Shown: positions 17,736 to 39,222 of the stretch, one piece after another
How positions within the stretch are numbered: the first letter of the stretch is position 1
How the letters are laid out: each line of letters begins with the position of its first letter
Assembly (NCBI GenBank): GCA_017560085.1
Contig: JAFYPA010000075.1
Span: 86-64,085, forward strand
DNA: 64,000 nucleotides
Direction: 5' to 3'
From: Clostridia bacterium
GTDB lineage: Bacteria > Bacillota > Clostridia > Oscillospirales > CAG-382
The notes under the pieces: generated by a model
Seen by the model: the letters and a program-made list of their open reading frames with translations, nothing else
Databases searched by the model: none
What the model was told of the DNA's origin: nothing
Position numbers and translations under genes: made by a program

Positions 17736-18977
17736 ATGACGAATTCAAGCATTTACAGTGACATTAAGGCAAGGACGGGCGGAGATATTTACCTCGGCGT
17801 AGTGGGACCCGTAAGGACAGGAAAGTCGACCTTTATCAAGAAGTTTATGGAAACGGTTGTGCTTCCCAATATCACAAACAGCGACGAGCGTACACGGGCA
17901 AGGGACGAAATGCCTCAGAGTGCGGGCGGTAAAACCGTTATGACCACCGAGCCGAAATTTGTTCCCGATACGGCGGTGGAGATTGTTCTTGACGGCAATG
18001 CGGCACTTCGTGTCAAGATGATTGACTGCGTGGGCTATATTATCCCCGGGAGCCTCGGACATACCGAGGAGGAAAGACCGAGAATGGTTATGACACCGTG
18101 GTCGGATGAGGAAATGCCCTTTGACAAGGCGGCGGAAATCGGTACGGCTAAGGTCATAAACGACCATTCCACAATAGGAATTCTTGTCACGACGGACGGC
18201 ACAATAGGTGAACTCCCCCGTGAGAATTACATTGAAGCGGAGGAGCGTGTGGTACGGGAGCTTCGTGAGATAAACAAGCCCTTTGCGATAATTCTCAACA
18301 GCGCGAATCCCGATTCGGACTCTGCCGTAGACCTTGCGATTTCAATGGAGGAAAAATACAAGGCTCCCGTTGCACTTGTCAACTGCACGGACCTTACGGA
18401 GGAGGACATAAAGAAAATACTCGAGCTTGTTCTTCTTGAGTTTCCCATAACCGAGCTCGGCATTACAATTCCGTCCTGGATAGATACACTTCCTATAGAC
18501 CACAGAATAAAGAAAAACCTTTACGACACAGTAAACAGAACCGCCCTTGAAATAACCAAGGTAGGGCAGGCAAGAGAAGCCTTCGGCAATATTTCCGACG
18601 GAGATTTTGAAATAAGCATCCGTCCCGATGCAATAGACCTTTCCGGCGGAAGAGTCCACCTTTGCGCCGATGTCCCCGACGAGCTGTTTTACAGAATCCT
18701 CGGCGAGGAAACGGGATTTGAAATAGACGGTGAGGAGGCTCTTATGGTAAAGCTCCGCGAGCTTTCGGAGGTGAAAAAGGAGTACGACAAGCTGGAAAAG
18801 GCCATCACGGAGGTACGCGAAAACGGCTACGGAATTGTCGCTCCGTCCCTTGAGGATATGACGCTTGAGCAGCCTGAAATTGTCAAGCAGGGCGGAAGCT
18901 ACGGAGTAAGGCTTAAGGCTTCGGCACCGTCTATACATATGAGCTGTAGCAAACAGAAGTGTTCGTTTGTGGCGTAA
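17736..18977 (+). CDS. spoIVA: spoIVA 5' segment: codons 1-402 are authentic, followed by 11 element-encoded codons and a stop
   Basis: IYSDIKARTGGDIYLGVVGPVRTGKSTFIKKFME (Walker A) and the rest of the protein read as SpoIVA up to ...SAPSIHM. It then continues SCSKQKCSFVA*. Confidence 0.93.
   Translation: MTNSSIYSDIKARTGGDIYLGVVGPVRTGKSTFIKKFMETVVLPNITNSDERTRARDEMPQSAGGKTVMTTEPKFVPDTAVEIVLDGNAALRVKMIDCVGYIIPGSLGHTEEERPRMVMTPWSDEEMPFDKAAEIGTAKVINDHSTIGILVTTDGTIGELPRENYIEAEERVVRELREINKPFAIILNSANPDSDSAVDLAISMEEKYKAPVALVNCTDLTEEDIKKILELVLLEFPITELGITIPSWIDTLPIDHRIKKNLYDTVNRTALEITKVGQAREAFGNISDGDFEISIRPDAIDLSGGRVHLCADVPDELFYRILGEETGFEIDGEEALMVKLRELSEVKKEYDKLEKAITEVRENGYGIVAPSLEDMTLEQPEIVKQGGSYGVRLKASAPSIHMSCSKQKCSFVA
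18933..18942 (+). other. attL core ATACATATGA
   Basis: The same 10-mer occurs at 60342-60351. It is flanked on the inside by GCTGTAGCAAACAGAAGTG. Confidence 0.85.
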
Positions 18978-18993
18978 AATGGGCAAAGCTAAA

Positions 18994-19026
18994 GCACAGA
19001 GGTTTTTGGTCTCTGTGCCTTATTTT
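18994..19026 (+). terminator. intrinsic terminator just inside the element's left end
   Basis: Stem GCACAGAG / CTCTGTGC with a 9-nt loop, then CTTATTTTTGTT. It would terminate the truncated spoIVA transcript. Confidence 0.6.
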
Positions 19027-19092
19027 TGTTCTTGAGGTGTCAAATTGCATTTGGCAGGCATTACATTTCAATCCGTTTTTTCGCGTGTAAGC

Positions 19093-20040
19093 TCACCAGG
19101 CCTTGACCGCTCTTTCACACATATCATCAATATATTCCTTCTTCTTCAAAGCCGTGAGCCACTTTTCGGGTATCGAATCCAATCCGTACAGCGCTCCCGC
19201 AAGACCGCCCGCAATCGCTCCGACGGTGTCCGTGTCATCACCTAAATTCACCGCCGAAAGAACACATTCCTCGTAAGACTTACTGTGCAATAAACAATAT
19301 ACAGCCGCTTCAAGAGTAGCAACTACATACCCGCTTGAGGATATATCGCTTCTTTTTGTCAATATAAATGTTTTATTGAAGAGCTTACTGTATTTATCCG
19401 ACTCAGGATATGACTTATAATATTCTTTTGCTTTGTTTAATCCGTTAAGAATGCTTTCCCTGACAGGATTGTCCATAAGCTCCCACAAAACAAAAGCATA
19501 AATTCCGCAGGCGATTTTCGATCTTTCGTGTGCGTGGGTAAGTGCGGAAACGGAATGGATTATTTCTATCTTTTCTTCCGTGCTCAAATTTTTTCTTGTG
19601 TACAAATATAATGCAACCGGATGTATTCTCATCAGAGAGCCGTTACCGTTTGATTGCTCATTGTCAAGACCGCACAGATTGACCGGCTTTTTATTTACAA
19701 AGTAATTATCAATAGCGTAACTGCAGGTATTACCGACATCAAACATTTCTCCCGTCGGAGTGAATTCATCCTTGTAATACCATTTACCGAAGTTAATCAT
19801 TATGTCATCGTAATTAACCATTCCGAGAGTAAGGCTTTCCAAAGTACCCAACGACATACTCGTATCATCGGACCAACAGCCTTCGGGGTAGGGGTATGTA
19901 CCGAAGCCCGTCATATCCGTTACGGGATTCTCATCCAATTCATCTCTGTCACAGAATTCCACGGGTACACCGAGAGCATCGGCTACGGCGTGACCGAATA
20001 TAACTGCTTTTACTGTGTTGTTGAAATCTTTCATAGGCAC
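19093..20040 (-). CDS. ADP-ribosylglycohydrolase family protein
   Basis: 315 aa: GHAVADALGVPVEF, WSDDTSM, GNGSLMRIHPV, GDDTDTVGAIAGGLAGALYG. Confidence 0.88.
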   Translation of the reverse strand: MPMKDFNNTVKAVIFGHAVADALGVPVEFCDRDELDENPVTDMTGFGTYPYPEGCWSDDTSMSLGTLESLTLGMVNYDDIMINFGKWYYKDEFTPTGEMFDVGNTCSYAIDNYFVNKKPVNLCGLDNEQSNGNGSLMRIHPVALYLYTRKNLSTEEKIEIIHSVSALTHAHERSKIACGIYAFVLWELMDNPVRESILNGLNKAKEYYKSYPESDKYSKLFNKTFILTKRSDISSSGYVVATLEAAVYCLLHSKSYEECVLSAVNLGDDTDTVGAIAGGLAGALYGLDSIPEKWLTALKKKEYIDDMCERAVKAW

Positions 20041-20089
20041 CTCTCAAAAATTAAAATTGTCGGGATGAATTTTTGCACCGTCAAGTGCT

Positions 20090-20257
20090 TCAATCCTCTT
20101 CATCATCAAAAGCCGTATCGTCTTCTTCGGATTCCGCTTTTTCCGCTTCGGATACCATATTTACAAATGCAAAAAGGTCTGCGGCTCGCTCGAAGCTGTC
20201 CAGCTTTCCGTCTCTGTTAAAATCGAATATACCACCAAAAAAGCCTTTGTCAAACAT
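20090..20257 (-). CDS. 55-aa acidic protein with one canonical EF-hand loop (below the ORF-track cutoff)
   Basis: Hand translation gives MFDKGFFGGIFDFNRDGKLDSFERAADLFAFVNMVSEAEKAESEEDDTAFDDEED. The loop DFNRDGKLDSFE fits DxNxDGxxDxxE. GGAGG RBS with 8-nt spacing. Confidence 0.6.
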   Translation of the reverse strand: MFDKGFFGGIFDFNRDGKLDSFERAADLFAFVNMVSEAEKAESEEDDTAFDDEED

Positions 20258-20351
20258 AATCGGAACCTCCCGGGTGTTTGTTGAAGTGATTGTTTTTTCT
20301 CTTGATGTTACTATTATAACATATAGGGTGTACTATAAGCAGTACAGTGAT

Positions 20352-21248
20352 TTATTCAATACCATCCATCCCCAAAGCATCCTCCCCACGAGTCCTCCTG
20401 TACCTGTACTCCGTAGGCGACATCCCGATATTTCTTGAAAATACCCTGCTGAAATACAACGGATCACGGAATCCCGAGCTTTCCGCCACAAGTGAAATCG
20501 TCAGCGTCGTGCTTGTCAGAAGCTCGCAGGCGTTTCTGATTTTTACATCCTCTATGAATTTCTGCGGTGTCTTGCCCGTGGCTTTCTTGAAGGCTACCGA
20601 GTACATTCCCGGACTCATTCCGCACAGCTTTGCATATTCGGAGATCTTTCTCGGATAGCGGTATTCCCATTCCATCTGAATTATTCCCTTTATTACCTTG
20701 TCCGCATTTGAATATCCCGAAAGAGTGCTTGGAAGCATTGTTTCGTTTCGCAGTGCGATTTCAGAAAAAAGCTTCATAAATATGGCGTTTATATGTATAC
20801 TGCTTTTCGCAAGCCTCTGTGCAAGTATCATCTGACGGAATATGTCCGATATTACCGCCGTGCTTCCGACAGAGTACACTCCGCTTTCGTGGATTCCGCA
20901 CTGTGACAGAAGCTCGGGAATTGCATATCCGTTGAAATGCACCCAGTAATTTATCGGGTTGTCTGTCCTTTTCTTGACGATTTTATGCGGAATGTTCGGA
21001 AAGCACAGAATAAGGTCGCCCTTCTTTGCGGTCGTCTCCTTATCACCGAGCGTTATTTCTATAAGTCCCTCCGTCACAAAAAGTGCGTAATAATCCTCTC
21101 TGCCGTTCTTTCTTTCCGTTATGTGCATATCATAGAAATTGTGAGGAGGTCTGTGGTCGGATATGTCGCAGTAGCTTACGGTTATGTATTCGTCAGGCTC
21201 TTTTTTGTAGGGAAGGTCGCTGCTTCCGTCGTGGTATATTACTTTCAA
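20352..21248 (-). CDS. AraC family transcriptional regulator (cupin + HTH)
   Basis: 298 aa with the C-terminal AraC HTH pair (SEYAKLCGMSPGMYSVAFKK..., GFRDPLYFSRVFSRNIGMSPTEYR). Confidence 0.88.
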   Translation of the reverse strand: MKVIYHDGSSDLPYKKEPDEYITVSYCDISDHRPPHNFYDMHITERKNGREDYYALFVTEGLIEITLGDKETTAKKGDLILCFPNIPHKIVKKRTDNPINYWVHFNGYAIPELLSQCGIHESGVYSVGSTAVISDIFRQMILAQRLAKSSIHINAIFMKLFSEIALRNETMLPSTLSGYSNADKVIKGIIQMEWEYRYPRKISEYAKLCGMSPGMYSVAFKKATGKTPQKFIEDVKIRNACELLTSTTLTISLVAESSGFRDPLYFSRVFSRNIGMSPTEYRYRRTRGEDALGMDGIE

Positions 21249-21454
21249 TTCCGCATCCTCCGATTGATTTGAATTCCCGGTGCTTTTATTATAATCATTC
21301 GGGAATTTTTTGTCAATGATTTTTGTGAAAATAATCCATATTTATATAAAATAAATCCATTTACTTTGATTTGCGATACCCTTATAATGTAGATATAATG
21401 ATATTTATTTTAAGATTTACAAACTATCTTATTATGAAAGGAACGGTTGTAATT

Positions 21455-24400
21455 ATGAGAAAAATATCCGCATTGGTTATGGCATTGCTTCTTGCCTCAC
21501 AGAGCCTTTTTACGGCATTGGCTCTCACGGAGCAGAACTATGATTTTGCAAAGTACAATCCTCTTGTAGAGGAGAATTTCCCGCTTGCAAGAGAGGCGGC
21601 AGGTGAAGGTATTGTACTTCTTGAAAACAAAAACAACACGTTGCCTCTCGCCGCTGACAGCAAGGTTTCTCTTTTCGGTATCGGACAGATAGACTATGTT
21701 GCGGGCGGTACAGGCTCGGGTATTATCAATACCGCATACAAGGTGAACTTCCTTGACGGTATGCTTGATGCTGAAAAGAACGGAAAGCTCACCGTTGATT
21801 CTGCAACGGCAAAGGTATACTCTGATATATACGACGAATGGACACAGGCTGTTGCCGATGCCGAGGCGGCAGGAACAGCAAAGCCTTCTCTTGATGAGTA
21901 CGCCCTCACGGATGAGGATGTAGCAAAGGCAAGAGCTGAAAGCGACACGGCAGTATATTACATCAGAAGAATCCAGGGTGAAGGAAGCGACAGAAAGGCT
22001 GTGAAGGGCGACTATTACATCAGCGACATCGAGGCTTCAAACCTTGCGAAGATTGATGAGGCAGGCTTTGAGAACTTTATAATTGTAATAAACGCAGGTA
22101 CAGCGGTTGATACCTCCTTCTTCAAGGATTACGAAACAGCCGACTCCCTTATTATGGCGTGGCTTCCCGGCGTTGAGGGCGGTCTTGCACTTGCGGATGT
22201 TATGACGGGCGATGTGAACCCTTCGGGTAAGCTTACCGATACGTTCCTTAAGTCCTACGACTGCTATCCTTCCGCAGAAAGCTTCACCGAGTCACAGTCC
22301 TTTGTAAACTACACCGAGGACATTTACAACGGTTACAGATATTTTGAAACCTTCGACCCGGAATACACAATGGTAAACTATGAGTTCGGCTACGGACTTT
22401 CATATACCGAATTTACACTTTCAGGCGACAGCGCTACCGTTTCCGACGGCAATGTAAATGTTTCCGTAAGCGTTAAGAACACGGGCGAGTGTGCGGGTAA
22501 GGAAGTAATTCAGGTGTACTACGGCGCACCTCAGGGACTTCTCGGAAAGAGCGCAAGGGTTCTTGCGGGATATGCAAAGACAAAGCTTCTTGCTCCCGGT
22601 GAAACACAGAGGATTACAGTTACATTCCCCGTATCCGATATGGCATCCTTCGATGACCTCGGCAAGACGGGAAACAAGTCCGCATATGTTCTTGAAGCGG
22701 GCGACTACAATTTCTACATAGGTAACTCCGTGCGCAATGCGGGTGAAAGAGGCATAAAGGGTACATATACCGTTTCCGAAACCGTTGTAACACAGCAGCT
22801 TACCTCGCTTCTCACACCCAATGCTCTCGATAAGAGACTTGTTGCAAAAGAAGAAGCGGACGGAAGCCTCACAGCGGAATACGAGCGTCTTTCCGTTACA
22901 ACCGATGCCGACGGAAGCTACAAAATCGACCCCAATGCCGCACAGACAATAATTGATGCGGAAAACTACACGGATGGTACAGACGGACTTGAAACTCCCG
23001 TTCTTCCCATGCAGGACAACCTTAAATACGTTAAGGGAATGAAGAACGGCGAATACATAAGCTTTGCCTTCTCCAACGAAAATGCGGCTATGTATACAAT
23101 CGCACTCAACATCTCCAACGGTGGCGAGGCGGTTTCTCCCTCCTTCAATATTTATCTTAACGATACTCTCGTATGCAGTGACATCTCCGTTGCATCAACG
23201 GGAAGCGGTACTGCAGACGGTACATTCGTGTTCAGCGAAACCGAATTCGGACTTCTTGTATTCGAAAAGGGCAAGAGCACCGTAAAGATTGAATCCGCAA
23301 ACGACGGACTTCTTGACATTGACAGCATTATCTTAAGACCTGTTACAGACCTTCCCGTAATCAAGGCGGACAAAAAGACGGTTATCGAAGCGGAAAAATA
23401 CGATGTAGCCTATAACAATCCCGATGACGGCAACAATATGCTTATTAGTACCGAATCCGCTCTTGGCGAAACACTTGTTGCAAAGATGCAGGGTAAGGGC
23501 AACTACATAGAATACCGTTTCCTCGTTGAAGAGGCGGGAACATATGCGTTCACCTTCAACTATGCCGCAACGGGAAATATGACAAATCCCTATTCCATAA
23601 GCATAAACGGAACAGTTCAGGATGTAAGCTATACACTTGCAAAAACATCTCCCGAGGGTACAACAAGTGCCGACGGTATGGTGTTCTATAACACCTGTGC
23701 AGACGCAGAGCCTATAGACATTGTTCTTCCCGCGGGCTTTGTAACAATGAGAATTACCACAATCGGCGGTTCTCCCAACCTTAACAGATACACCTTTGAA
23801 AAGAAGTTCGAGCTTCCTTCAGGCTTTACACTGGTTTCGGGCACGGAAAACACCGAAATTGAGGCGGAAAATGCTTCCGCTATGGCTAAGGGTGTGTGGG
23901 CTGAAGTAAAGACCGTTGACGGCGTGGAAACAAAGGTACTCAACGCACTTACGGGCGAGGGCAAGTTCCTTGAATACAAGCTCTGGTTTGAAAAGGCGGG
24001 AGAGTACGGCGTTGTATTCAATGTTGCTTCTACCGCTAACGGCACAAATCCCTTCAGATTCCTTGCAAACGGCAACGAAATAGCTGTTTCCGACTACACA
24101 TTTACAAAAACAACTCCCGAGGGAGCAACCACATCCGACACGGATGCATACTATCACACATACCTCGATATGCCCGCGATAGCTATGGAATTCCCCGCAG
24201 GTAAGGTTATCTTCAGACTTGAAACAACAGATACAAAGCAGAAGCCCAATTTCAACAAGTTCACAATAAAGCCCGTTGCCGAATACGAGGCGGAAGCTCC
24301 CGCAGGCTACAGACAGGTGCTTGACACCGAGCCTCTTGTAATTCAGGCTGAAAGCTATGATGCAAACTTCAATGTACAGACACAGAAAATGAATCAGCTT

Positions 24401-27328
24401 ACCCTTGCCGGGGGTGAATCTCAGGGCGAGGTTATAATGGAAAACATCAAGTCAAGCGGTTCATATCTTGAATACAACGTATGGTTCAAGTACGGCGGAG
24501 ACTATACAATAACCTATAACTACGCTTCAACAAGAAATCACGAAGCTCCCTTTGAGGTATACCTTGACGGCGAAAAGCTCATAAGAAGCGAAAGCTACAC
24601 ACTTGCAAAGACCTCTCTCGAGGGTGCTACATGGAAGGATACATACGACTACTACTTCGTGTTCAAGAATTCCGATCCCATTCCCTATACCTTCCCGCAG
24701 GGCAGCACAACACTCAGAATTTCCGCAGATAACGGCGCAGGCTCAAACTTCGATATGCCTAACCTCAACTACATCACAATTACCTGCGTTGAGGCGGACA
24801 TCCCCGAAATAACAGCTCCCGACGGCGGTGATGACGAAGGGGAAGAAGACGAGGGCGAGGGCACGGAAACAGAGCCCGAAATCTCCGCAGACAGACTTCC
24901 CGATTATACCGAAAAGGAAGAGGATGCCGAGCTTATAATGTACGAGGACTACATTTCCGGAAAGGCAACTCTTGACGAATTTGTAGCACAGCTTACAAAC
25001 CTTGACCTTATCCGTCTTGCGGGCGGTCATCCTCCGGTTAACGGCTGCTCCTCCTCTATGGGCAGACTTCTTAAGTATCACATCCCGACAGTAAACACAG
25101 GTGACGGCGGCGCGGGTATCAGAACAGGTGCGGATGCCATGACAACATGGTGGCCCTGCTCCACAATGCTCGCCTGCACATGGAATACAGACCTTATAAG
25201 ACGTGTCGGCAATGCCGTAGGTCTTGAAGGAAAGAGACTCCGCTGGGATACATGGCTCGCTCCCGGACTTAATATCCACCGTAATCCCCTTTGCGGAAGA
25301 AACTTCGAGTATTATTCCGAGGATCCGCTTGTTTCCGGTATTTGTGCCGCAGAAATAACCATCGGTGCAAGAGCACAGGGAATGCACACTGTTCCCAAGC
25401 ACTTTGCCGTAAACAACAAGGAGAGCGGAAGAAGCATAAGCGACAGCCGACTTTCCGAAAGAGCACTTCGTGAAATCTACCTCAAGGGCTTTGAAATCCT
25501 TGTAAAGAAGGCACAGCCCAAGTACATTATGACCTCCTACAACCTCATAAACGGCACGGAAGCCGCTGAAAGCTACGACCTTCAGACAGCAATCCTCCGA
25601 GGTGAATGGGGCTTTGACGGAATCACAATGACAGACTGGAACAACACAAACTCCAGACCCGCAAAGGAAATCAAGGCGGGAAGCAACATCAGAATGCCCT
25701 ACGGCGAAATAAATGAGCTTGTCCGTGACCTTTACAACGGCGACATTACAAGAGAAGAGCTCAAGGAAAATGCAAAGGTAATTCTCCCCGTGCTTGCGGA
25801 CTCCATGGCGTTTGAGGGTGCTTTGAACGTATATGAGGTAACAAGAGAATCCGATATATATATTCCCGTTATAAACTACAACTACGTTAACGACGATAAC
25901 TTCGGAACGGTAATAAAGGACTTCACATCCTCCGATAACAAGTTCTATGGCGTAGGTGAATACTACGAGCATCACTCGTGGACACCCAACCTTACATATT
26001 CCGCAGACGGCGGTGTTTCTCTCAATATCTGGTCAAAGAATGTAACCAACGATAACGTTGAATTCGATGACAGCTCGCTGTTCCTTGCATATAACGTGGA
26101 TGTTGAGGAAAGCGGAAGCTATAAGATTTATCTGTTCACACCTCAGAAGAGCCAGACAAACACAATCTATGTTGACGACGTAAAGGCGGGCGATATCCGT
26201 TCGGGCAAGGCTTCAAGAGATGAAACCTATGTCAGAAGTGAGGCTCTCACGGTAAATCTTACAAAGGGCAGACACACAATAAAGCTTGGCGGCGTCGGTG
26301 TTGTTGAAAGACTCTGCATCACTCCCGACTTCACAAAGGAGCAGGAAGCTGTTGATGGCAGAATCTTCACAAAGATTGACAGCGAATGGGGTCTTAAGTT
26401 CGAGAAAATGTCTGACGAAATAGGCACCTTCAACCGTATAACGGTTGACCCCGATGATGTCGATAATATGCTCGCAACGGACCACTGGAGCATTGCAAAC
26501 GACGAAACCGTATATCCTTACCTTGCATTCTGCTACAGAACGAACTACGACGGCGAAATGACAGCATACGCAAAGCGTTCGGGACAGTCAACGGGTGATG
26601 CAAATGCATATACCTTCAAGGCAGACAAGGCAGATGTGTGGACAACAAGTGTAATAAAGCTTACGGGTACGGGCGACGATACAATCTTCCGTCAGCTTCA
26701 CTTCTATCCCTTCGGCAAGGGCAATACCCATGCAAATGCACTTGAAAAGAACTATTATTTCGACCTCTACCATTACGGCTTCTTCAAGACGGAGGCAGAT
26801 GCACTCGCATACTGCAGAAACCACGCTCCCAAGGCAATCAAGGGTAACATCATCCTTGAGCGTGACATTGAAAACGGATACTATGACGATGCACTCCTCG
26901 GTTATGCGGGCTATGCGGAAATATCACTTCTTGACAGCAACGGCAAAACCGTATCCAAGTTCTACGAATACGGCACATATGTCAGCGAAACGGACGGCAA
27001 GGCAACAATCGGCTTCACCTTTGATGCCGAGGACGGAGATTACACCCTTGTTGTAAGAAAGCCCGGCTACGCTGAAAAGCAGGTAGCGATAACCGTAGAA
27101 AACGGCACGGCACACATAGACGATATCCACCTTCTCGCAGGTGATATTACGGCAAGCTTCAGCGAAGTACACGGCGACGGCATAATAGACATAGACGACT
27201 TTATAAGAATACTCCGTGCATTTGCACACGATGCGGATGAAAGAATAAAGATTTACACGGATATAAACGAGGACGGACTTGTAAACGTATCGGATATTGC
27301 GATACTCAAGAAGAACTTCGGAAAATAA
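21455..27328 (+). CDS. secreted multidomain GH3 glycosidase, domain-permuted, with four CBM-like modules (the last three tandem repeats) and a C-terminal dockerin
   Basis: Signal peptide MRKISALVMALLLASQSLF. The GH3 alpha/beta-sandwich and FnIII-like domains come first (KLTDTF, YGLSYTEF). Four IxAExY-type CBM-like modules follow, then an acidic linker. Next is the GH3 barrel (KHFAVNNKE, GFDGITMTDW). The protein ends in a dockerin duplicate (HGDGIIDIDD...DINEDGLVNVSD). The track ORF start at 21371 is upstream of the signal peptide. Confidence 0.85.
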   Translation: MRKISALVMALLLASQSLFTALALTEQNYDFAKYNPLVEENFPLAREAAGEGIVLLENKNNTLPLAADSKVSLFGIGQIDYVAGGTGSGIINTAYKVNFLDGMLDAEKNGKLTVDSATAKVYSDIYDEWTQAVADAEAAGTAKPSLDEYALTDEDVAKARAESDTAVYYIRRIQGEGSDRKAVKGDYYISDIEASNLAKIDEAGFENFIIVINAGTAVDTSFFKDYETADSLIMAWLPGVEGGLALADVMTGDVNPSGKLTDTFLKSYDCYPSAESFTESQSFVNYTEDIYNGYRYFETFDPEYTMVNYEFGYGLSYTEFTLSGDSATVSDGNVNVSVSVKNTGECAGKEVIQVYYGAPQGLLGKSARVLAGYAKTKLLAPGETQRITVTFPVSDMASFDDLGKTGNKSAYVLEAGDYNFYIGNSVRNAGERGIKGTYTVSETVVTQQLTSLLTPNALDKRLVAKEEADGSLTAEYERLSVTTDADGSYKIDPNAAQTIIDAENYTDGTDGLETPVLPMQDNLKYVKGMKNGEYISFAFSNENAAMYTIALNISNGGEAVSPSFNIYLNDTLVCSDISVASTGSGTADGTFVFSETEFGLLVFEKGKSTVKIESANDGLLDIDSIILRPVTDLPVIKADKKTVIEAEKYDVAYNNPDDGNNMLISTESALGETLVAKMQGKGNYIEYRFLVEEAGTYAFTFNYAATGNMTNPYSISINGTVQDVSYTLAKTSPEGTTSADGMVFYNTCADAEPIDIVLPAGFVTMRITTIGGSPNLNRYTFEKKFELPSGFTLVSGTENTEIEAENASAMAKGVWAEVKTVDGVETKVLNALTGEGKFLEYKLWFEKAGEYGVVFNVASTANGTNPFRFLANGNEIAVSDYTFTKTTPEGATTSDTDAYYHTYLDMPAIAMEFPAGKVIFRLETTDTKQKPNFNKFTIKPVAEYEAEAPAGYRQVLDTEPLVIQAESYDANFNVQTQKMNQLTLAGGESQGEVIMENIKSSGSYLEYNVWFKYGGDYTITYNYASTRNHEAPFEVYLDGEKLIRSESYTLAKTSLEGATWKDTYDYYFVFKNSDPIPYTFPQGSTTLRISADNGAGSNFDMPNLNYITITCVEADIPEITAPDGGDDEGEEDEGEGTETEPEISADRLPDYTEKEEDAELIMYEDYISGKATLDEFVAQLTNLDLIRLAGGHPPVNGCSSSMGRLLKYHIPTVNTGDGGAGIRTGADAMTTWWPCSTMLACTWNTDLIRRVGNAVGLEGKRLRWDTWLAPGLNIHRNPLCGRNFEYYSEDPLVSGICAAEITIGARAQGMHTVPKHFAVNNKESGRSISDSRLSERALREIYLKGFEILVKKAQPKYIMTSYNLINGTEAAESYDLQTAILRGEWGFDGITMTDWNNTNSRPAKEIKAGSNIRMPYGEINELVRDLYNGDITREELKENAKVILPVLADSMAFEGALNVYEVTRESDIYIPVINYNYVNDDNFGTVIKDFTSSDNKFYGVGEYYEHHSWTPNLTYSADGGVSLNIWSKNVTNDNVEFDDSSLFLAYNVDVEESGSYKIYLFTPQKSQTNTIYVDDVKAGDIRSGKASRDETYVRSEALTVNLTKGRHTIKLGGVGVVERLCITPDFTKEQEAVDGRIFTKIDSEWGLKFEKMSDEIGTFNRITVDPDDVDNMLATDHWSIANDETVYPYLAFCYRTNYDGEMTAYAKRSGQSTGDANAYTFKADKADVWTTSVIKLTGTGDDTIFRQLHFYPFGKGNTHANALEKNYYFDLYHYGFFKTEADALAYCRNHAPKAIKGNIILERDIENGYYDDALLGYAGYAEISLLDSNGKTVSKFYEYGTYVSETDGKATIGFTFDAEDGDYTLVVRKPGYAEKQVAITVENGTAHIDDIHLLAGDITASFSEVHGDGIIDIDDFIRILRAFAHDADERIKIYTDINEDGLVNVSDIAILKKNFGK

Positions 27329-27382
27329 AAATTATCGGGGGCTTGCATAAGAGCAGGCTCCCGAGTTTCTGTTATATATATA

Positions 27383-28276
27383 TCAATCCGCAACGCAAAG
27401 TCCCATATCCCGAAGAACGGATTTTGCCTCTTCAATTTCCGCATCCGCAGGAATAACCGTGGGAAGAGTATCAACCATATCCAGCGACTTATATTTCGTG
27501 GAAGCATAATTATGATACGGCAACACCTTAACTCTCGTTATATTGGAAAGTCCCTTCAAAAGCTCCCCGATTTTCCGTACCTCGCCGTCATTGAAGCCGG
27601 GAACATAAGGATACCTTATCTCAATGCTCTTTCCCAAAGAATCAATATATTTCAGATTCTCAAGAATCACCGCATTGTCCTGTCCCGTGCATCTTTTGTG
27701 TACATCGGAGTCTATCGCTTTAAGGTCGTACAGAAACAAATCCGTGTACGGAATAACCTTGTCAAGTGCCGCCTTGGAGACAAATCCGCAGGTGTCAACC
27801 GCAGTGTGCAGGTTTTCCTCCTTGAAGCGCTTCAGAAGTGCCTCGCAGAAGTCCGGCTGCATAAGACATTCACCGCCGGAAAGGGTTACACCGCCATTTT
27901 TGGAGCAGACGTAAAAATCCTTGTCCTTGAGAACATCCGCAACTATCTCTTCGACCTCTGCCTCCTTGCCGTAGTAGGTCAATACCTTACCGGGGCAGAC
28001 CGTGGCACATTTTCCGCAGAGAGTGCATTTGCTTCTGTCAAATATATGCTTTCCGTCCGAATCTATGGTGTGCGCACCGCTCGAGCACGCCCTTACACAG
28101 CTTCCGCAGGAGGTGCATTTGTGCTCAAGGAACCCAAGCTGACTCTGCTTTCCTATGCTTTCGGGGTTGTGACACCACAGACATTTAAGCGGGCAACCTT
28201 TGAGAAATACCGTTGTACGGATGCCCGGACCGTCGTGTACGGCAAAGTGTTTTATGTCAAATATAAATCCTCTCAT
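27383..28276 (-). CDS. glycyl-radical enzyme activating protein (radical SAM)
   Basis: 297 aa: DGPGIRTTVFLKGCPLKCLWCHNPE, plus ferredoxin-like Cys clusters (CTSCGSCVRAC, CTLCGKCATVCP). Confidence 0.92.
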   Translation of the reverse strand: MRGFIFDIKHFAVHDGPGIRTTVFLKGCPLKCLWCHNPESIGKQSQLGFLEHKCTSCGSCVRACSSGAHTIDSDGKHIFDRSKCTLCGKCATVCPGKVLTYYGKEAEVEEIVADVLKDKDFYVCSKNGGVTLSGGECLMQPDFCEALLKRFKEENLHTAVDTCGFVSKAALDKVIPYTDLFLYDLKAIDSDVHKRCTGQDNAVILENLKYIDSLGKSIEIRYPYVPGFNDGEVRKIGELLKGLSNITRVKVLPYHNYASTKYKSLDMVDTLPTVIPADAEIEEAKSVLRDMGLCVAD

Positions 28277-30525
28277 AAATTCGCTTCCTCCAGCTCTGCA
28301 CGGCGTATGAATTCATCCTGAAAATTCTTTTCCATCTGTGTAAAGAACCAGCTCCATCCGCTGATACGCACCTGAAGATTCTTGTGGTTTTCGGGGTGTA
28401 CCTGCGCATCACGGAGCATATTCGCATCCTGAACATTGCCCTGGAAGCCGTAACCGCCACGCTTCATAAAGGTGCGGAGAAGTCCGAGCATAGCATCAAG
28501 TCCGTCCTCACCCTTGACCGCAGAGGGGTGAAGAATATAGTCAAAGGGACAACCGTATGCAAGTCCCGTAGCATCAATCTTTGTAACGGAGTTTATAAGA
28601 GAAGTAATACCGTGTCTGTCCTGACCTATAGCGGCACTCATATTCTTTGAGAGCAAATCTCCTCTTTTTCTGCCGTCGGGAGTAGCACCGCACTTGTCCG
28701 CCCATCTGTGTGAAAACCAGATTGACTCACCGTTTACAACAAAGTGACCACCCCGTACATTCTTTCTTGACGTTACCATTGTAGTAAAATGATCAAGCAT
28801 ACGGACAGCGATTGAGTCTACCGTGTCAATGTCGTTGCCGAATTTTTCCTCGTCGCCCAGCATAGTCATACGCATTTCCTCGTAGCCTTCCCAATCGTCA
28901 AGAAGAGCGTCACGGAGAGTGCAGAGGTCAAAATCCTTGTTGTCGTAAACGTGCTTTTTAACCATCATAAGCGAGTCCGCCGCCGATGCATGACAGGAGA
29001 GGAACATTACGGTATTATTATACTTAACACCATTGTAATAAGCATCCTTGCCGTTTTTTACGCTGTCGGGCATAGATGCGGAATATATCGGTGCGGGGTT
29101 TATATCAAGAAGATGCGAGTCGTAGAAATCGGAGATAATAAAGGCTTTGTTTATAAGACATTCCGTTTGTGCGACATATGCCCTTTCAAAGTCCTCATAT
29201 GTCCTGAATTCTGAAATATCACCCGTATCAACGCCGATAAACTCACCTGTTGCAGGGTCTGTACCTCTTGTAAAAACAAGCTCAATGCCCTTGAGAAGAT
29301 TAACATACATATGCTCGGGCGTGGTTTCCTTACCTCGGGAAGCAAAGTTGTTACAGCCTGTTCCGACAAGTCTCTTTGTTTCCTCTTCCGTTCTGCCGAG
29401 CTTTCTTGAAATCTTCATTCCAAGCTCTTCGTTGATGAATACAATACAGTTTCTTCCTCTGCGAATCATCTCAAGAGCCTTCTTCAGAAATTCGTCGGGC
29501 GTACCCGGCATAACCTTGATAAAAAGCTTGGGATTTACTATGCAGGACTTGTCGTAAGCATCAAGCATAATATAGGAAAGCTCATTGATGAGAGTGCCGT
29601 TATCGTCAAATCCGCCGAAGTAAATAGGCTGTGCGTGGATGTGTCCCTGATTGGTATATTTTTCGTACAGGAACTGAAAAAGCTCCACCGCATTTTCCCT
29701 TGTGAGCCTGCCTTCCTCAAGGTCTTTTTTGTAAAAAGCGTAGCCGTCAACGTCAAGATTTCCGAGGGTTCGTACCTGAATTATGTCAACGTACTGCTGA
29801 ATAAGGTGGTAAAGATAGGTCAGCATAAGATACTGATACAAGGTCTTGGGCGTGGAGTATCTTATGTTTTCAAGACATTCTGCCATTATCGGCATTTTCT
29901 CGTTGTCGTCTATGTGCTTTTTCGCACACGCAAGGAATCTGTCAAGCAGTCGGAGAATGGCTTCGTAGGAGATTTTTATGCCGTCATAGTAAATCTTCTG
30001 TTCGTCTGTGAGAGTACCGTCCGAAATCTTTTCGGCTCTTGCTCTTTCGCTTCTTTCAAGAAGTCCCGCAAAGCCAAGACCTATAACCGAATCCCAGTCG
30101 GGAACGCTGTGGTCATAGTCACATCCGAAAATGCCCGCACCTGAAGCGGCAATTCCCTTTGCGGAATCAATAAATTCCTGCGGTCTCTGTATTTCCGCAA
30201 GCCACTCACGGTTGAGATAGGAGAGAGGCTTGAAGATAGCTCTCCTTGACAGCTCCGGGACATCCTCTGCGGAGTTGGGCTGCCATCCGCTGAAATTCAG
30301 ACCGAACCAGTCAAGAACGTTGATTTCGATGGCACAGTTGTCAAGAAGGCATTCAATCGCCTTTGCCTTGATAATGGTGTGGGGCTGTCCCCGCATACTG
30401 TCGGTGAGCGCCTTTATCTTTTCGACAAGCTCGTTGTTATCCGTAATACCGCTGTTCGGTTCAAACTCGGGATGAAGATAAAAATTCTGCGACTCGCGTG
30501 TTTCGTCAAATGTATTCCAGAGCAT
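28273..30525 (-). CDS. glycyl radical enzyme (PFL-like fold), substrate unknown
   Basis: 750 aa with the C-terminal Gly-radical motif NLQVRISGWSWFF...DEFIRRAE. 4-nt overlap with the activase gene. Confidence 0.85.
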   Translation of the reverse strand: MLWNTFDETRESQNFYLHPEFEPNSGITDNNELVEKIKALTDSMRGQPHTIIKAKAIECLLDNCAIEINVLDWFGLNFSGWQPNSAEDVPELSRRAIFKPLSYLNREWLAEIQRPQEFIDSAKGIAASGAGIFGCDYDHSVPDWDSVIGLGFAGLLERSERARAEKISDGTLTDEQKIYYDGIKISYEAILRLLDRFLACAKKHIDDNEKMPIMAECLENIRYSTPKTLYQYLMLTYLYHLIQQYVDIIQVRTLGNLDVDGYAFYKKDLEEGRLTRENAVELFQFLYEKYTNQGHIHAQPIYFGGFDDNGTLINELSYIMLDAYDKSCIVNPKLFIKVMPGTPDEFLKKALEMIRRGRNCIVFINEELGMKISRKLGRTEEETKRLVGTGCNNFASRGKETTPEHMYVNLLKGIELVFTRGTDPATGEFIGVDTGDISEFRTYEDFERAYVAQTECLINKAFIISDFYDSHLLDINPAPIYSASMPDSVKNGKDAYYNGVKYNNTVMFLSCHASAADSLMMVKKHVYDNKDFDLCTLRDALLDDWEGYEEMRMTMLGDEEKFGNDIDTVDSIAVRMLDHFTTMVTSRKNVRGGHFVVNGESIWFSHRWADKCGATPDGRKRGDLLSKNMSAAIGQDRHGITSLINSVTKIDATGLAYGCPFDYILHPSAVKGEDGLDAMLGLLRTFMKRGGYGFQGNVQDANMLRDAQVHPENHKNLQVRISGWSWFFTQMEKNFQDEFIRRAELEEANL

Positions 30526-30691
30526 AAAGTGACCTCGCTTCTGTGTTTTATTCTGTGGTCAGTATATACCCGCAGACGGAAAATGTAAATGTGTTTAATC
30601 GAATTATTTGTGTTTTTTCGTACTGTTTTGAAATCTTTGTATTGACCTTTTGCGATATATATGCTAAAATACACACGAAGGAGCTGATAAA

Positions 30692-31477
30692 ATGGAACAC
30701 ATACAGTGGCTTTCGGATTTGTGTATTTCCGAATTGCTTTTCGCCAAGACCTACACCACGGTAAAAAAGTACTATCCGATAAGAAACAAATCCCGACATC
30801 ACCACGGATTCATATACACCCTTGAGGGAGCGGAAACCTACACCTTCCGTGACAAAAAAATAACCTCACCGCCGGGTACAATACTGTACATCCCGAAGGG
30901 TGAGGCATACACAATAGAGCTTGATGACGAGGTAAATGTAGTTGTTACAATGGAATTTGAGCTTCCCGAATGTCAGGCACAGACCCGTCCGTTTCTGATA
31001 AAAGCCGACAAGGGCAACGACACAAAGAACTGCTTTCTGGAAGCGGAGCGTATATGCAACAGCAGAAGGTACGCCTCAAGCGTACTGTGTAAATCCTTGT
31101 TTTACAAGGTGGTATACAACCTTCTCTCAAGGGAGACGGGCTACCACACTCAAAAGAGCGGTCAAAGGCTCTGTGATGCGGTGGAGTACATCCACTCAAA
31201 CTACAGACGGAACGACTTCCGTATAACCGACGCCTATGCCGTATCGGGCATCAGTGCCAAATACTTCGAAACCCTGTTCAGACAGGAATACGGTGTAACC
31301 CCGAAGGAGTATCTGATTCGGCTACGCATAGAATATGCAAAGGTGCTTCTGGAGAATGAAAAGTACACCGTCAGCGATGCGGCGTTTGAGGTTGGGTATT
31401 CGGATATATATCATTTCAGCAAGATATTCAAGGCGAAAACGGGGATGTCGCCGGGGGAGGTTAAGAGGCAGGGGTGA
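30692..31477 (+). CDS. AraC family transcriptional regulator
   Basis: 261 aa with HTH region AYAVSGISAKYFETLFRQEYGVTPKEY...GYSDIYHFSKIFKAKTGMSPGE. Confidence 0.88.
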   Translation: MEHIQWLSDLCISELLFAKTYTTVKKYYPIRNKSRHHHGFIYTLEGAETYTFRDKKITSPPGTILYIPKGEAYTIELDDEVNVVVTMEFELPECQAQTRPFLIKADKGNDTKNCFLEAERICNSRRYASSVLCKSLFYKVVYNLLSRETGYHTQKSGQRLCDAVEYIHSNYRRNDFRITDAYAVSGISAKYFETLFRQEYGVTPKEYLIRLRIEYAKVLLENEKYTVSDAAFEVGYSDIYHFSKIFKAKTGMSPGEVKRQG

Positions 31478-31499
31478 GGATGTAAGGTATTGCTTTGTT

Positions 31500-31943
31500 G
31501 TGTATTATCTTAACATAAAAGACGGAAGAGATACCGAGACGGATTATTCGAGTGTTCTTATCGGAACTATTGCCGAAGAAACCGATGATGGAAATTTAGA
31601 ACTTTATGCTGTGTGTTCTGTGGTAGAAATGGGGAAAAATAAACCCCCGGCACTTATTGAGTACGGAGTTGTAGGTTCTCTTTATGCTGCTAATGCTAAA
31701 AAAACAGCAGACATTGACCATGATTGGTTTGACGATGCTATGTCACCCCGCCCCGTTCGCCGTCTGCGTAAAGTAAGTATATCACAACTTCTCCGTTCTG
31801 TCAAGGAGGTATTTGATGATACTTTATATGAGGATGTTTATGAGCATTTTGAAGTGAATATTTTTGATGGGCGGGCGTGGGCTCGCCTTTTTTCTTTTTT
31901 TGGGAGAAGGAAAGGGGAGGAGGAAAAGCAAAAGAAAGACTAA
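31500..31943 (+). CDS. hypothetical protein (start uncertain; GTG proposed)
   Basis: Open frame continuing past the AraC stop, ending in a Lys/Glu-rich tail. No motif recognised and the RBS is weak. Confidence 0.35.
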   Translation: MYYLNIKDGRDTETDYSSVLIGTIAEETDDGNLELYAVCSVVEMGKNKPPALIEYGVVGSLYAANAKKTADIDHDWFDDAMSPRPVRRLRKVSISQLLRSVKEVFDDTLYEDVYEHFEVNIFDGRAWARLFSFFGRRKGEEEKQKKD

Positions 31944-32119
31944 ATTCTCAAATATATTCGCTCTCCTCAAAAAAAGTTTGTTTTATATATTTAGTGCGAG
32001 TTTTATAGTACATATAAATATTTAAAGAGATTTATATAGTACACTACCCCGAGTATAATAAAGACATAACCAAAGCAAACAACTTCCCGAAATTCAAACA
32101 ACAAACGGAGGAACAAAAA

Positions 32120-32827
32120 ATGTGCTACATCATTACAGACAATGTTCACTATCTCGGAATGGACTACAGAGGACGTCCGTCAGTTGAAACGAAATCAAGC
32201 GAAGCTCACGAATTTATGTCCTGGATAGGGGCGGAAAACTTTTTAAGATGCCTGCCCGATGCATTCAGACGATATAAGTGGGAGATTGTCGACCTCCGGC
32301 AATGCGAGGAGGAAGGCACTGTGACCGTTGACGAATCAGGCAAAAGAATCTTCGGTAATTCCACAAAAACAACAATACTTGAGGCTGATGACTTTGATAT
32401 ATGCAATTTTTTTGATAAAGTAATAACCGTTATGTCACAGCTTGACAGATACATCGCAAATATGAAGGACGGCGAACAGCTGACGGACATGAAAATCCTC
32501 GATGTACGCCATTACATCCGCAACAACAACCACAGACTCAACGCCATCCAGATGCAGAGGCTTGGCTATTATCTTCAGGAGCTTGAAAGAAAGAGATACG
32601 GCTACAAGTCGGGACGCCTTATTGCGGAAATGTTTGCAAGCAACGTGGAAGCCCTGAAGGATAAGTCTTGCATAGACAAAATGAACGACATTGTCAACAG
32701 CCGCTACCATCCGAGAGTGCTTGAGGATTCGGATATCGAGAGCATAATCAACAAGAAAAAGGAGCTTGAGTTCCCGACGGATGCCTTTGCGACATATGGC
32801 GAAGCGGTTGGTATGGGGATAGGATAA
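32120..32827 (+). CDS. hypothetical protein (235 aa)
   Basis: ORF with a GGAGGAA RBS. No motif recognised. Confidence 0.55.
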   Translation: MCYIITDNVHYLGMDYRGRPSVETKSSEAHEFMSWIGAENFLRCLPDAFRRYKWEIVDLRQCEEEGTVTVDESGKRIFGNSTKTTILEADDFDICNFFDKVITVMSQLDRYIANMKDGEQLTDMKILDVRHYIRNNNHRLNAIQMQRLGYYLQELERKRYGYKSGRLIAEMFASNVEALKDKSCIDKMNDIVNSRYHPRVLEDSDIESIINKKKELEFPTDAFATYGEAVGMGIG

Positions 32828-32880
32828 AAAAGTATTTAAAAATATAATGCCGATAAAGACGGCAGAACGGAGCTTATTAA

Positions 32881-33045: not shown

Positions 33046-33046
33046 T

Positions 33047-33370: not shown

Positions 33371-33420
33371 CGAGGAACGAACGTAGCAATAACGATAAAG
33401 TGTAAAAGGAGACCACAAAA

Positions 33421-34236: not shown

Positions 34237-34299
34237 TTTCGAATTGTAGGTTTTGATATATGTGGCAATGCCAATTGTAATTAACGAAAGGGTGATATT

Positions 34300-39106: not shown

Positions 39107-39155
39107 AAGGTCGGATTTGTGATTTAAAATCACAAAATAAACAAGATGCTGTGTG

Positions 39156-39184: not shown

Positions 39185-39222
39185 AAAACAAAACCTCCCA
39201 CAAGAAAGTCGAGGACTCAAAT

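What the first reader, a model, noticed from the sequence alone, without database searches (positions are those of the whole stretch)
18921..18962. attL: 10-bp core with serine-recombinase-style dyad symmetry
**Seen in the sequence.**
- attL reads TCGGCACCGTCT-ATACATATGA-GCTGTAGCAAACAGAAGTG.
- attR (60321-60362) reads CACTTCTGTTTGCTGCAAGCC-ATACATATGA-TCCGTGCCGA.
- The inferred attP has perfect 14-bp inverted arms, CACTTCTGTTTGCT / AGCAAACAGAAGTG. They extend imperfectly to about 19 bp around a core that contains the palindrome CATATG.
- The inferred attB has weaker dyad arms, TCGGCAC...GTGCCGA.

**Established knowledge.** Short, imperfectly palindromic attB and attP sites around a small identical core are the substrate architecture of large serine recombinases.

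**Inference.** These are the crossover sites for the recombinase at 47857-49572.
Basis: partly seen in the sequence, partly recalled or inferred. Interest (0 to 1): 0.8.

Follow-up and report, generated by a model that had tools for sequence, protein, structure and literature searches.

The report
Recombinase sites splitting spore gene spoIVA
The two short sequences are the ends of a 41-kb non-viral DNA island that cuts the essential spore-coat gene spoIVA in two; related recombinases sit at exactly this spot in many gut Clostridia, so the island almost certainly must be cut out precisely for spores to form.

Summary
ATACATATGA occurs only twice in the window (18933, 60342). The flanking arms rebuild an attP with 20/25 dyad pairs and an attB with 13/25, both centred on the same C|A step.

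The sites are the breakpoints of spoIVA. Joining 17736-18942 to 60343-60623 gives an intact 492-aa SpoIVA (TIGR02836, 685 bits).

Comparative evidence ties the sites to the recombinase at 47857-49572. In about 30 other contigs, homologues (40-70% identity) lie directly beside a spoIVA fragment broken at the same codon. Thirty element-side half-sites share ACTTCTGTTTG in one register.

The identity block is 10 bp here but 8 bp in a relative. The crossover is therefore most likely the central CA of the His401 codon.

The 41,409-bp element carries metabolic and defence cargo and no phage genes. A conserved 53-aa ORF upstream of the recombinase is the candidate directionality factor.

The detached 3' fragment is under strong purifying selection (dN/dS about 0.02), so the gene is still used.

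This is a new member (new target gene) of the known class of sporulation-gene intervening elements. Excision timing and the directionality factor are inferred, not shown.

The parts
17736..18942 (+). spoIVA 5' fragment (residues 1-402 plus the first base of codon 403). As it stands, the ORF runs on to 18977 and adds an 11-aa tail read from the element.
   Evidence: Pfam SpoIVA_ATPase plus SpoIVA_middle. Annotated in NCBI as a 413-aa 'stage IV sporulation protein A'.
18912..18961 (.). attL: host-side B half-site 18912-18936 and element-side P' half-site 18937-18961 (contains CAAACAGAAGT).
18933..18942 (.). 10-bp block ATACATATGA, identical in attL and attR.
   Evidence: only two copies in the window, and the identity does not extend.
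18936..18937 (.). Predicted crossover dinucleotide CA in attL (His401 codon).
   Evidence: Dyad centre of attB and attP. Same register in 30 half-sites. Identity block limited to ATACATAT in L093 and ending at CATAT in L172. The cleavage position is inferred.
18994..19028 (+). Terminator-like hairpin plus T tract just inside the left end. It would end transcripts of the truncated spoIVA.
   Evidence: The hairpin and the preceding GCATAAAATGGGCA are conserved at the left ends of L169, L172 and L008.
18937..60345 (.). Excisable element, 41,409 bp (boundaries as if cut at CA). Cargo: GH3-dockerin protein, two glycyl-radical enzymes with an activase, three AraC regulators, SDRs, MATE, ADH, AcnX, GH38, SIR2, GmrSD-type nuclease, PtuA/AriA-like ATPase. 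No phage genes.
47616..47777 (+). 53-aa ORF, candidate recombination directionality factor.
   Evidence: A homologue lies directly upstream of the recombinase in at least 19 loci. No Pfam or NCBIfam match. The function is inferred.
47792..47815 (+). Hairpin plus T tract between the 53-aa ORF and the recombinase gene.
   Evidence: An equivalent hairpin is followed by a sigma-A-like promoter in L093, L092, L094, L116 and L091.
47857..49572 (+). Large serine recombinase, 571 aa.
   Evidence: Pfam Resolvase plus Recombinase. Full length against the family, and it carries all invariant residues including the YARVS serine. Family of more than 100 clusters at 56-70% identity.
60321..60370 (.). attR: element-side P half-site 60321-60345 (contains ACTTCTGTTTG) and host-side B' half-site 60346-60370.
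60342..60351 (.). 10-bp identity block ATACATATGA in attR. The predicted crossover CA is at 60345-60346.
60342..60623 (+). spoIVA 3' fragment (in frame from the Ile400 codon to the stop; residues 403-492 are unique to this side).
   Evidence: Pfam SpoIVA_C. dN/dS about 0.02 against L081.

Best explanation
18912-18961 and 60321-60370 are the attL and attR sites of a 41,409-bp integrated element that splits spoIVA, the gene for the spore-coat morphogenetic ATPase.

Proposed mechanism:
- The element's large serine recombinase (47857-49572) binds as dimers to the two sites. Each site is one host half-site joined to one element half-site carrying ACTTCTGTTTG 14-24 bp from the centre.
- Helped by a directionality factor (most likely the conserved 53-aa ORF at 47616-47777), the recombinase cuts both sites at the central CA of the His401 codon and exchanges strands.
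- This releases the element as a circle carrying attP. It leaves attB, which is an uninterrupted 492-codon spoIVA.
- By analogy with skin, SPbeta, vfbin and gin, this is expected to happen in the mother cell during sporulation, so the spore keeps the element.

Shown: the split; the exact in-silico restoration of the gene; the linkage of this recombinase family to this codon of spoIVA; the conserved half-sites and their shared centre; purifying selection on the detached fragment.

Inferred: the cleavage position, the identity of the directionality factor, and the timing and cell type of excision.
For: - Gene restoration. Joining the flanks across one copy of the core gives a 492-aa protein that matches TIGR02836 end to end (685 bits, cutoff 459.9). 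It aligns without gaps over the junction with 79 intact spoIVA genes.
- Shared centre. attP (20/25) and attB (13/25) have the same dyad centre at C|A.
- Linkage to the recombinase. A 70%-identical recombinase in L081-L086 is immediately followed by attR and the spoIVA 3' fragment. About 30 loci with 40-70% identical recombinases show a spoIVA fragment starting or ending at residues 399-404.
- A whole relative. L093 holds a complete 9.5-kb relative with both junctions.
- Conserved half-sites. Thirty P and P' half-sites align to ACTTCTGTTTG at -24..-14 in a single register. That consensus matches perfectly only at the two sites in the window.
- Only one recombinase. It is the only recombinase found among the element's ORFs, and it is full length with the family's invariant residues.
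- The gene is still used. All 20 detached 3' fragments are open to the normal stop. Window against L081 gives pN 0.069 and pS 0.739.
- Co-divergence. Recombinase and SpoIVA divergence are correlated (Mantel r 0.66, 0 of 5000 permutations).
- Empty site in a relative. The closest relative with an intact spoIVA (83% identity; L170/L171) shares the upstream gene order (ATP synthase, Crp, Fer4, ferritin) and has an uninterrupted site.
- Regulatory layout. Small ORF, then hairpin, then a sigma-A-like promoter, then the recombinase. This parallels C. difficile skin, where the recombinase is constitutive and the directionality factor is sigma-E dependent (PMC5025042).
Against: - No assembled empty site or attP circle of this strain was found. 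The exact rebuilt SpoIVA is absent from the 15-billion protein collection, and an attP-form pattern gave no hit in viral contigs.
- The recombinase gene is 10.7 kb from attR here, whereas its relatives have it at the edge.
- The zinc-ribbon Pfam model did not score on this protein, although it does on homologues.
- The 53-aa ORF matches no known directionality factor.
- The promoter reading is weak. A CATA-type -10 lies upstream of the small ORF in 7 of 11 loci, but the window's own copy does not fit the strict pattern at the expected spacing.
- No experiment supports any step.
Confidence: 0.82

Rival explanations
1. The sites are genuine recombinase att sites, but excision is not developmental. 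The element is an integrative mobilisable or conjugative-type island that uses the conserved spoIVA codons merely as a landing site. It excises for transfer or at random, and sporulation is blocked in cells that carry it.
For: - The recombinase's nearest solved relatives are conjugative-transposon recombinases (3G13, TnpX).
- The small relative in L093 carries fragments of a rolling-circle Rep and a DUF87/HerA-like ATPase plus a sortase.
- Closely related hosts are polymorphic. Among SpoIVA hits at 75% identity or more, 12 are intact and 7 are truncated.
Against: - The window element has no replication, transfer or mobilisation genes.
- The detached 3' fragment has dN/dS of about 0.02 between two interrupted lineages.
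- Recombinase and host gene co-diverge (Mantel r 0.66), which points to long vertical residence with the gene still in use.
- The small ORF has its own promoter and terminator, separate from the recombinase, as in developmentally controlled systems.
Confidence: 0.12
2. The element is a fossil insertion that can no longer excise. spoIVA is permanently inactivated and the host no longer sporulates.
For: - No intact allele of this strain is in the databases.
- The recombinase gene is displaced 10.7 kb from the junction.
- The cargo looks host-like in G+C content and even carries the host's heptamer repeat.
Against: - The recombinase is full length with all family-invariant residues.
- Both element-side arms are perfect matches to the family consensus.
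- Both spoIVA halves are free of stops and frameshifts and rejoin in frame.
- The 3' fragment is under strong purifying selection.
Confidence: 0.05
3. The 10-bp direct repeat is a target-site duplication, and the arms are terminal inverted repeats of a DDE-type transposon or the ends of a prophage with a tyrosine integrase.
For: Direct repeats flanking inverted termini are formally compatible with a transposon.
Against: - No transposase, tyrosine integrase or phage structural gene is in the element.
- The repeat length is not fixed in the family: 10 bp here and 8 bp in L093.
- Every insertion, in hosts whose SpoIVA C-terminal fragments are down to about 41% identical to the window's, is at the same codon.
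- The dyad arms start 13 bp from the centre, not at the repeat edge.
- A serine recombinase gene is linked to the junction in about 30 loci.
Confidence: 0.01

Closest known systems
skin element of Clostridioides difficile (recombinase CD1231 plus directionality factor CD1234, in sigK)
   Same: A large serine recombinase excises an element that splits a mother-cell sporulation gene. The att sites are half-sites with imperfect inverted repeats around a short identical block. A small orphan protein serves as directionality factor. The recombinase is driven by a sigma-A-type promoter, and the small gene is transcribed separately (PMC5025042; layout here).
   Different: The target is spoIVA, not sigK. 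The element is 41 kb of metabolic and defence cargo rather than a 14.6-kb prophage-like remnant. The 53-aa ORF shows no detectable similarity to known factors. Nothing here has been tested experimentally.
gin element in gerE of Bacillus cereus ATCC 10987 (GirC/GirX)
   Same: A non-prophage intervening element in a sporulation gene, excised by a serine recombinase plus a small factor. [quoted passage not shown]
   Different: gin has three recombinase genes and restriction-modification cargo and sits in a sigma-K-dependent gene. This element has one recombinase and mostly catabolic cargo. It sits in spoIVA, a gene that is sigma-E dependent in B. subtilis and C. difficile.
skin of Bacillus subtilis (SpoIVCA), SPbeta (SprA/SprB in spsM), vfbin (spoVFB), vrin (spoVR), yin (yabG)
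   Same: The same principle: a large serine recombinase precisely rebuilds a sporulation gene, and the element is retained in the germ line (PMC4191935, PMC10747680).
   Different: All of these are prophages or prophage remnants in other genes. No spoIVA case was found in the searchable literature.
TnpX/TndX-type recombinases of clostridial transposons Tn4451 and Tn5397
   Same: These are the nearest solved catalytic domains (3G13, 2MHC). They are large serine recombinases that excise a circular intermediate with a 2-bp crossover (established knowledge).
   Different: Those elements are mobilisable or conjugative resistance transposons with loose target choice. This family is locked to a single codon of spoIVA.

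Membership tests
Large serine recombinase attL/attR pair | The element encodes a large serine recombinase (resolvase catalytic domain, recombinase domain, zinc-ribbon/coiled-coil region). | tested here: met
   PF00239 and PF07508 are both significant. The YARVS serine and Cys/His cluster columns are invariant across 25 family members, including this one. PF13408 (zinc ribbon) is recorded for several homologues but did not score on this protein.
Large serine recombinase attL/attR pair | attP of about 50 bp and attB of about 40 bp, each an imperfect inverted repeat, with attB weaker and both sharing one centre. | tested here: met
   attP scores 20/25 and attB 13/25, with the same centre between C and A. 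P and P' half-sites from 30 junctions superimpose in one register.
Large serine recombinase attL/attR pair | A non-palindromic central dinucleotide, identical in both partners, at the dyad centre. | tested here: inconclusive
   The sequence at the centre is CA in both sites, and it lies inside the shortest identity block seen in the family (ATACATAT). Actual cleavage was not observed.
Large serine recombinase attL/attR pair | Conservative recombination: the joint restores the target exactly. | tested here: met
   The in-silico joint gives an intact 492-aa SpoIVA, ungapped against 79 intact genes.
Large serine recombinase attL/attR pair | The recombinase acts on these sites, and excision needs a directionality factor. 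| not testable with these tools
   Only co-occurrence evidence exists. The recombinase is adjacent to the same junction in about 30 loci, and the 53-aa ORF is adjacent to the recombinase in at least 19 loci.
Sporulation-gene intervening element (skin-like) | It interrupts the coding sequence of a sporulation gene expressed in the mother cell. | tested here: met
   The target is spoIVA by the TIGR02836 equivalog model. spoIVA is used as a sigma-E target in PMC5025042. Its expression in this organism was not tested.
Sporulation-gene intervening element (skin-like) | The split gene stays functional, meaning it is maintained by selection despite the interruption. | tested here: met
   All 20 detached 3' fragments are open to the normal stop. 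dN/dS is about 0.02 between two interrupted lineages.
Sporulation-gene intervening element (skin-like) | Excision occurs during sporulation, in the mother cell. | not testable with these tools
   There are only indirect hints: a CATA-type -10 upstream of the small ORF in 7 of 11 loci, and separate transcription units.
Prophage | Phage structural, packaging or lysis genes. | tested here: not met
   The 30 ORFs of the element give only metabolic, regulatory and defence domains. Phage recombinases are at most 43% identical.
DDE transposon with target-site duplication | A transposase gene and a fixed-length duplication abutting the terminal inverted repeats. | tested here: not met
   There is no transposase. 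The repeat is 10 bp here and 8 bp in L093, and the arms begin 13 bp from the centre.
Integrative conjugative or mobilisable element | Replication, relaxase, coupling-protein or transfer genes. | tested here: not met
   None is in the window element. Fragments of Rep and a DUF87 ATPase are present only in the small relative L093.

The most novel reading that the evidence does not exclude
A widespread family of islands in gut and rumen Oscillospiraceae-like Clostridia makes spoIVA depend on a programmed DNA excision. spoIVA is the one coat-morphogenetic gene found in all spore formers. The islands are largely vertically inherited and carry variable cargo. The family would be a previously undescribed developmental rearrangement acting on a sigma-E-stage structural gene. 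It would double as a 'safe harbour' where carbohydrate-active enzymes, glycyl-radical enzymes and phage-defence genes accumulate, because the mother cell discards the island while the spore keeps it.
Probability: 0.6. Interest if true: 0.7.

Novelty: new member of a known kind. Interest (0 to 1): 0.55.

Why it matters
- Generality. Sporulation genes split by excisable elements are known for sigK, spoVFB, spoVR, spsM, gerE and yabG. A spoIVA case was not found in the searchable literature. It would extend the phenomenon to the universal coat-assembly ATPase and to uncultured gut Clostridia, where sporulation governs transmission between hosts.
- Annotation. spoIVA appears as a truncated 413-aa protein in about a third of the closest relatives. 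These organisms could therefore be wrongly scored as non-sporulating.
- Tools. The family offers dozens of natural recombinase/attP variants that all target one conserved attB. This is a ready-made series for studying how large serine recombinases read their sites and for genome-engineering tools.

Tried and rejected
- Metagenome scan with the single recombinase protein found nothing. Repeating it with a family alignment worked.
- Looked for the excised or free form with an attP-shaped pattern (ACTTCNGTTTG-N26-CAAACNGAAGT) in viral contigs: no hit.
- Recombinase relatives in IMG/VR are at most 46% identical, and none lies beside spoIVA, except L174, whose contig ends inside an attR-like site. 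A phage origin is therefore not supported.
- Exact look-up of the rebuilt 492-aa SpoIVA was negative. The nearest intact proteins are 83-84% identical. No same-strain empty site is therefore available.
- Rfam found nothing in the window.
- Pfam and NCBIfam gave nothing for the 53-aa ORF.
- PADLOC gave nothing for the unknown ORFs at 31.3-33.4 kb.
- Considered a relic att site near the recombinase's 3' end to explain its internal position. No second half-site was found with up to 2 mismatches, apart from one chance-level hit at 57505.
- Tried to read sigma-E or sigma-K promoters by eye upstream of the small ORF and of spoIVA. Only the CATA-type -10 enrichment is reportable. The -35 element and spacing are not convincing in the window itself.
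- Noted a possible 5-bp inward shift of the outer motif in attB relative to attP, as in the Listeria A118 integrase model. The match is only about 5 of 10 bases, so it is not claimed.

Full report
**1. Observation**

The two sequences are in the window exactly as quoted.
- ATACATATGA occurs only at 18933-18942 and 60342-60351. The identity stops at both edges.
- The repeat finder reports the 41-nt stretches as an inverted repeat, 76% complementary (I7).
- I swapped the flanks to rebuild the two parental sites. attP has 20 of 25 complementary pairs, including the perfect 14-bp arms. attB has 13 of 25, including TCGGCAC/GTGCCGA.
- Both dyads are centred at the same point, between C and A of ATAC|ATATGA.
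- A 10-bp direct repeat alone means nothing here, because the window holds 4,982 such pairs. Among them, the only others that rebuild an attP-like dyad of 17/25 or more are artefacts of AATGCAT heptamer tandem arrays.

**2. What the sites interrupt**

- The ORF ending just after attL (17736-18977) and the ORF starting at attR (to 60623) are the two parts of spoIVA.
- Joining them across one copy of the core gives a 492-aa protein. It matches the SpoIVA equivalog model TIGR02836 over 1-492 of 492 (685 bits, cutoff 459.9). It also carries the three Pfam SpoIVA domains.
- Seventy-nine intact spoIVA genes from other species align without a gap across the joint. The local peptide ASAPSIHM(M/I)(R/K)AD is conserved, and 9 of the 79 carry the identical 10-mer.
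- The break follows Met402. The dyad centre lies in the His401 codon.
- The inserted DNA is 41,409 bp.

**3. What the element is**

- Pfam and PADLOC scans of its 30 large ORFs show no phage, transposase or transfer genes.
- The cargo is:
 - an ADP-ribosylglycohydrolase;
 - three AraC regulators;
 - a 1,985-aa GH3 protein with a dockerin;
 - two glycyl-radical enzymes with an activase;
 - short-chain dehydrogenases;
 - an FAD oxidoreductase with a GDSL lipase;
 - a GmrSD-type nuclease and a PtuA/AriA-like ATPase;
 - a MATE pump and an alcohol dehydrogenase;
 - a DEDDh exonuclease;
 - aconitase X and an old-yellow-enzyme-type reductase;
 - a GH38 mannosidase, a VIT1 protein and a SIR2 protein.
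- The only recombinase is the 571-aa large serine recombinase at 47857-49572 (Resolvase plus Recombinase domains). It lies 10.7 kb from attR and 29 kb from attL.
- G+C content is close to that of the flanks, except for the GmrSD region.

**4. Link between this recombinase and these sites**

- The recombinase belongs to a large family, with more than 100 clusters at 56-70% identity.
- For the 70%-identical P0002, six contigs show the order 53-aa ORF, recombinase, about 170 bp, then a spoIVA C-terminal fragment. The junction there reads ACTTTGGTTTGCTACTTATC-ATACATATGA-TAAGAGCCGAC. That is the same core and a matching arm in the same register.
- A metagenome scan with a family alignment (A1), followed by tblastn with the rebuilt SpoIVA, found about 30 loci. 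In them, a recombinase at 40-70% identity lies beside a spoIVA fragment that starts or ends at residues 399-404.
- L093 contains a whole 9.5-kb relative with both junctions.
- In L092, L094 and L155 the recombinase gene abuts attL on the opposite strand, so the recombinase end of the element faces the other way.
- Among GTDB species representatives, L008 is broken at the same residue.
- Among the closest SpoIVA proteins (75% identity or more), 7 are truncated (413 or 435 aa) and 12 are intact.
- L169 and L172 give further attL junctions.

**5. The recognition motif and the crossover**

- I wrote each element-side half-site 5'-to-3' towards the His codon. The 24 non-identical P arms and the 6 P' arms (reverse-complemented) fall into one alignment. 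It has A-C-T-T-C-T-G-T-T-T-G at -24 to -14, C at -10 and ATA(C/T) at -4 to -1.
- P and P' carry the same motif in the same columns only if the centre is placed between C and A. This fixes the centre independently of the window.
- The motif is a DNA signal, not a by-product of coding. It is non-coding in the window and in L081, and it recurs inverted at the far end of the element.
- The consensus has perfect matches in the window only at the two sites.
- The block of attB/attP identity is 10 bp here, 8 bp (ATACATAT) in L093, and ends at CATAT in L172. The exchange must therefore lie within ATACATAT.
- Serine recombinases cut at a central 2-bp overlap (established knowledge). The best candidate is therefore the non-palindromic CA at 18936-18937 and 60345-60346. 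This step is inferred.
- The attB symmetry comes from conserved codons: Ala-Pro (GCN CC) on one side and Arg-Ala (CGN GC) on the other. This explains why one site serves hosts whose SpoIVA C-terminal fragments are down to about 41% identical to the window's.

**6. Accessory features**

- A 53-aa ORF (47616-47777) lies directly upstream of the recombinase. Homologues sharing the motif E(I/L)KLxxNxxLxxxGxI(T/S)EEMYxKAKE hold the same position in at least 19 loci. It matches no Pfam or NCBIfam model.
- The small ORF is followed by a strong hairpin (47792-47815).
- In relatives the same hairpin is followed by a sigma-A-like promoter for the recombinase: TTGACA-17-TATAAT in L093 and L092.
- A CATA-type -10 lies upstream of the small ORF in 7 of 11 spoIVA-linked loci. 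None of 2,000 shuffles reached this count.
- This layout parallels C. difficile skin, where the recombinase is constitutive and the 72-aa directionality factor is sigma-E/SpoIIID dependent (PMC5025042).
- Just inside the left end, a terminator-like hairpin (18994-19018 plus a T tract) is conserved with its upstream GCATAAAATGGGCA in L169, L172 and L008. It would stop transcripts of the truncated gene from running into the cargo.

**7. Is the split gene still used?**

- All 20 non-redundant detached 3' fragments are open to the canonical ...GLICIIL stop.
- Between the window and L081, both interrupted, the fragment has pN 0.069 against pS 0.739, so dN/dS is about 0.02.
- Pairwise recombinase identity tracks pairwise SpoIVA identity (Mantel r 0.66, 0 of 5,000 permutations). 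This fits long, mostly vertical co-residence.
- The closest relative with an intact gene (83%; L170/L171) shares the upstream gene order and shows the uninterrupted site.
- One of the host's odd intergenic heptamer arrays also sits inside the element (53371-53401), which again suggests long residence.

**8. What is missing**

- No same-strain empty site or attP circle is in the databases.
- Nothing shows when or where excision happens.
- Nothing shows that the 53-aa protein is the directionality factor.

**9. Comparison and novelty**

- The system works like the known sporulation-gene intervening elements:
 - skin in sigK;
 - SPbeta in spsM;
 - vfbin in spoVFB;
 - vrin in spoVR;
 - gin in gerE;
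 - yin in yabG.
- It is closest in layout to C. difficile skin and closest in cargo type to the non-prophage gin.
- Six literature searches and five papers gave no report of a spoIVA case. The library is incomplete, so this is absence of evidence only.
- The recombinase's nearest solved relatives are clostridial conjugative-transposon recombinases. Phage recombinases are at most 43% identical.
- I file it as a new member (new target gene, new host group) of a known kind.

**10. Verdict**

- Three refinements apply: the sites split spoIVA; the functional crossover is probably the central CA rather than the whole 10 bp; and the element is a cargo island rather than a prophage.
- Interest is 0.55.

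Noticed in passing
window 1836-1882, 3777-3807, 3924-3954, 7703-7742, 11072-11097, 14001-14038, 53371-53401, 63260-63290: There are eight intergenic tandem arrays (4-7 copies) of a 7-nt unit: AATGCAT, AAATGCA, or ATTGTGC with its complement. Some form long inverted pairs, for example 3767-3819 with 3912-3964. One array lies inside the element and the rest lie in the host flanks. Their function is unknown.
   Followed up: partly
window 11840-11910 and 12915-12985: A 71-nt direct repeat, 94% identical, lies upstream of two neighbouring genes (a 300-aa unknown protein and ferritin). It looks like a duplicated promoter or leader region.
   Followed up: no
window 3366-3390 (- strand gene) and 11309-11333: A 25-mer, identical at 24 of 25 bases, lies on the coding strands of two unrelated genes: the 464-aa ORF at 2337-3731 (minus strand), which by synteny with L171 is the ATP synthase beta subunit, and a 4Fe-4S protein. 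In both it encodes REAPEYDE in the same frame. This is too similar for chance at the DNA level and is unexplained.
   Followed up: partly
L101 9950-10000 and L113 (same position): A P'-type half-site (GGAACAAACAGAAGT) sits between a sigma-A-like promoter and the ribosome-binding site of the recombinase gene. It may be an autoregulatory operator. These loci lack the small upstream ORF.
   Followed up: partly
L093 9932-11644; also L105, L099 and others: In many relatives the recombinase reading frame runs into the P arm and core of attR. Its last codons would therefore differ between the integrated and excised states.
   Followed up: no
L092, L094, L155: The recombinase gene abuts attL on the opposite strand. 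The module is therefore inverted relative to spoIVA in some elements, although the crossover register is unchanged.
   Followed up: partly
L169 11615-21242; L172 11299-16104; window 39223-41199: The cargo differs completely between elements at the same site. L169 has HipA/Fic toxin-antitoxin genes, an SNF2 helicase and a KAP NTPase. L172 has an AraC regulator and a GH4 enzyme. L172 and the window do share an FAD-oxidoreductase plus GDSL-lipase pair.
   Followed up: partly
window 41000-43500: The GmrSD-type nuclease gene lies in a G+C trough (36-39% against about 46%). This suggests a more recent acquisition within the element.
   Followed up: no
window 62348-63220 and 63390-63931: Two adjacent paralogous GNAT-like N-acyltransferase genes, about 71% identical at the DNA level, lie downstream of the site.
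   Followed up: no
window 23500-24650: There are internal repeats of about 465-500 nt (three copies, 63-78% identical) inside the 1,985-aa GH3-dockerin gene. These are probably repeated domains.
   Followed up: no
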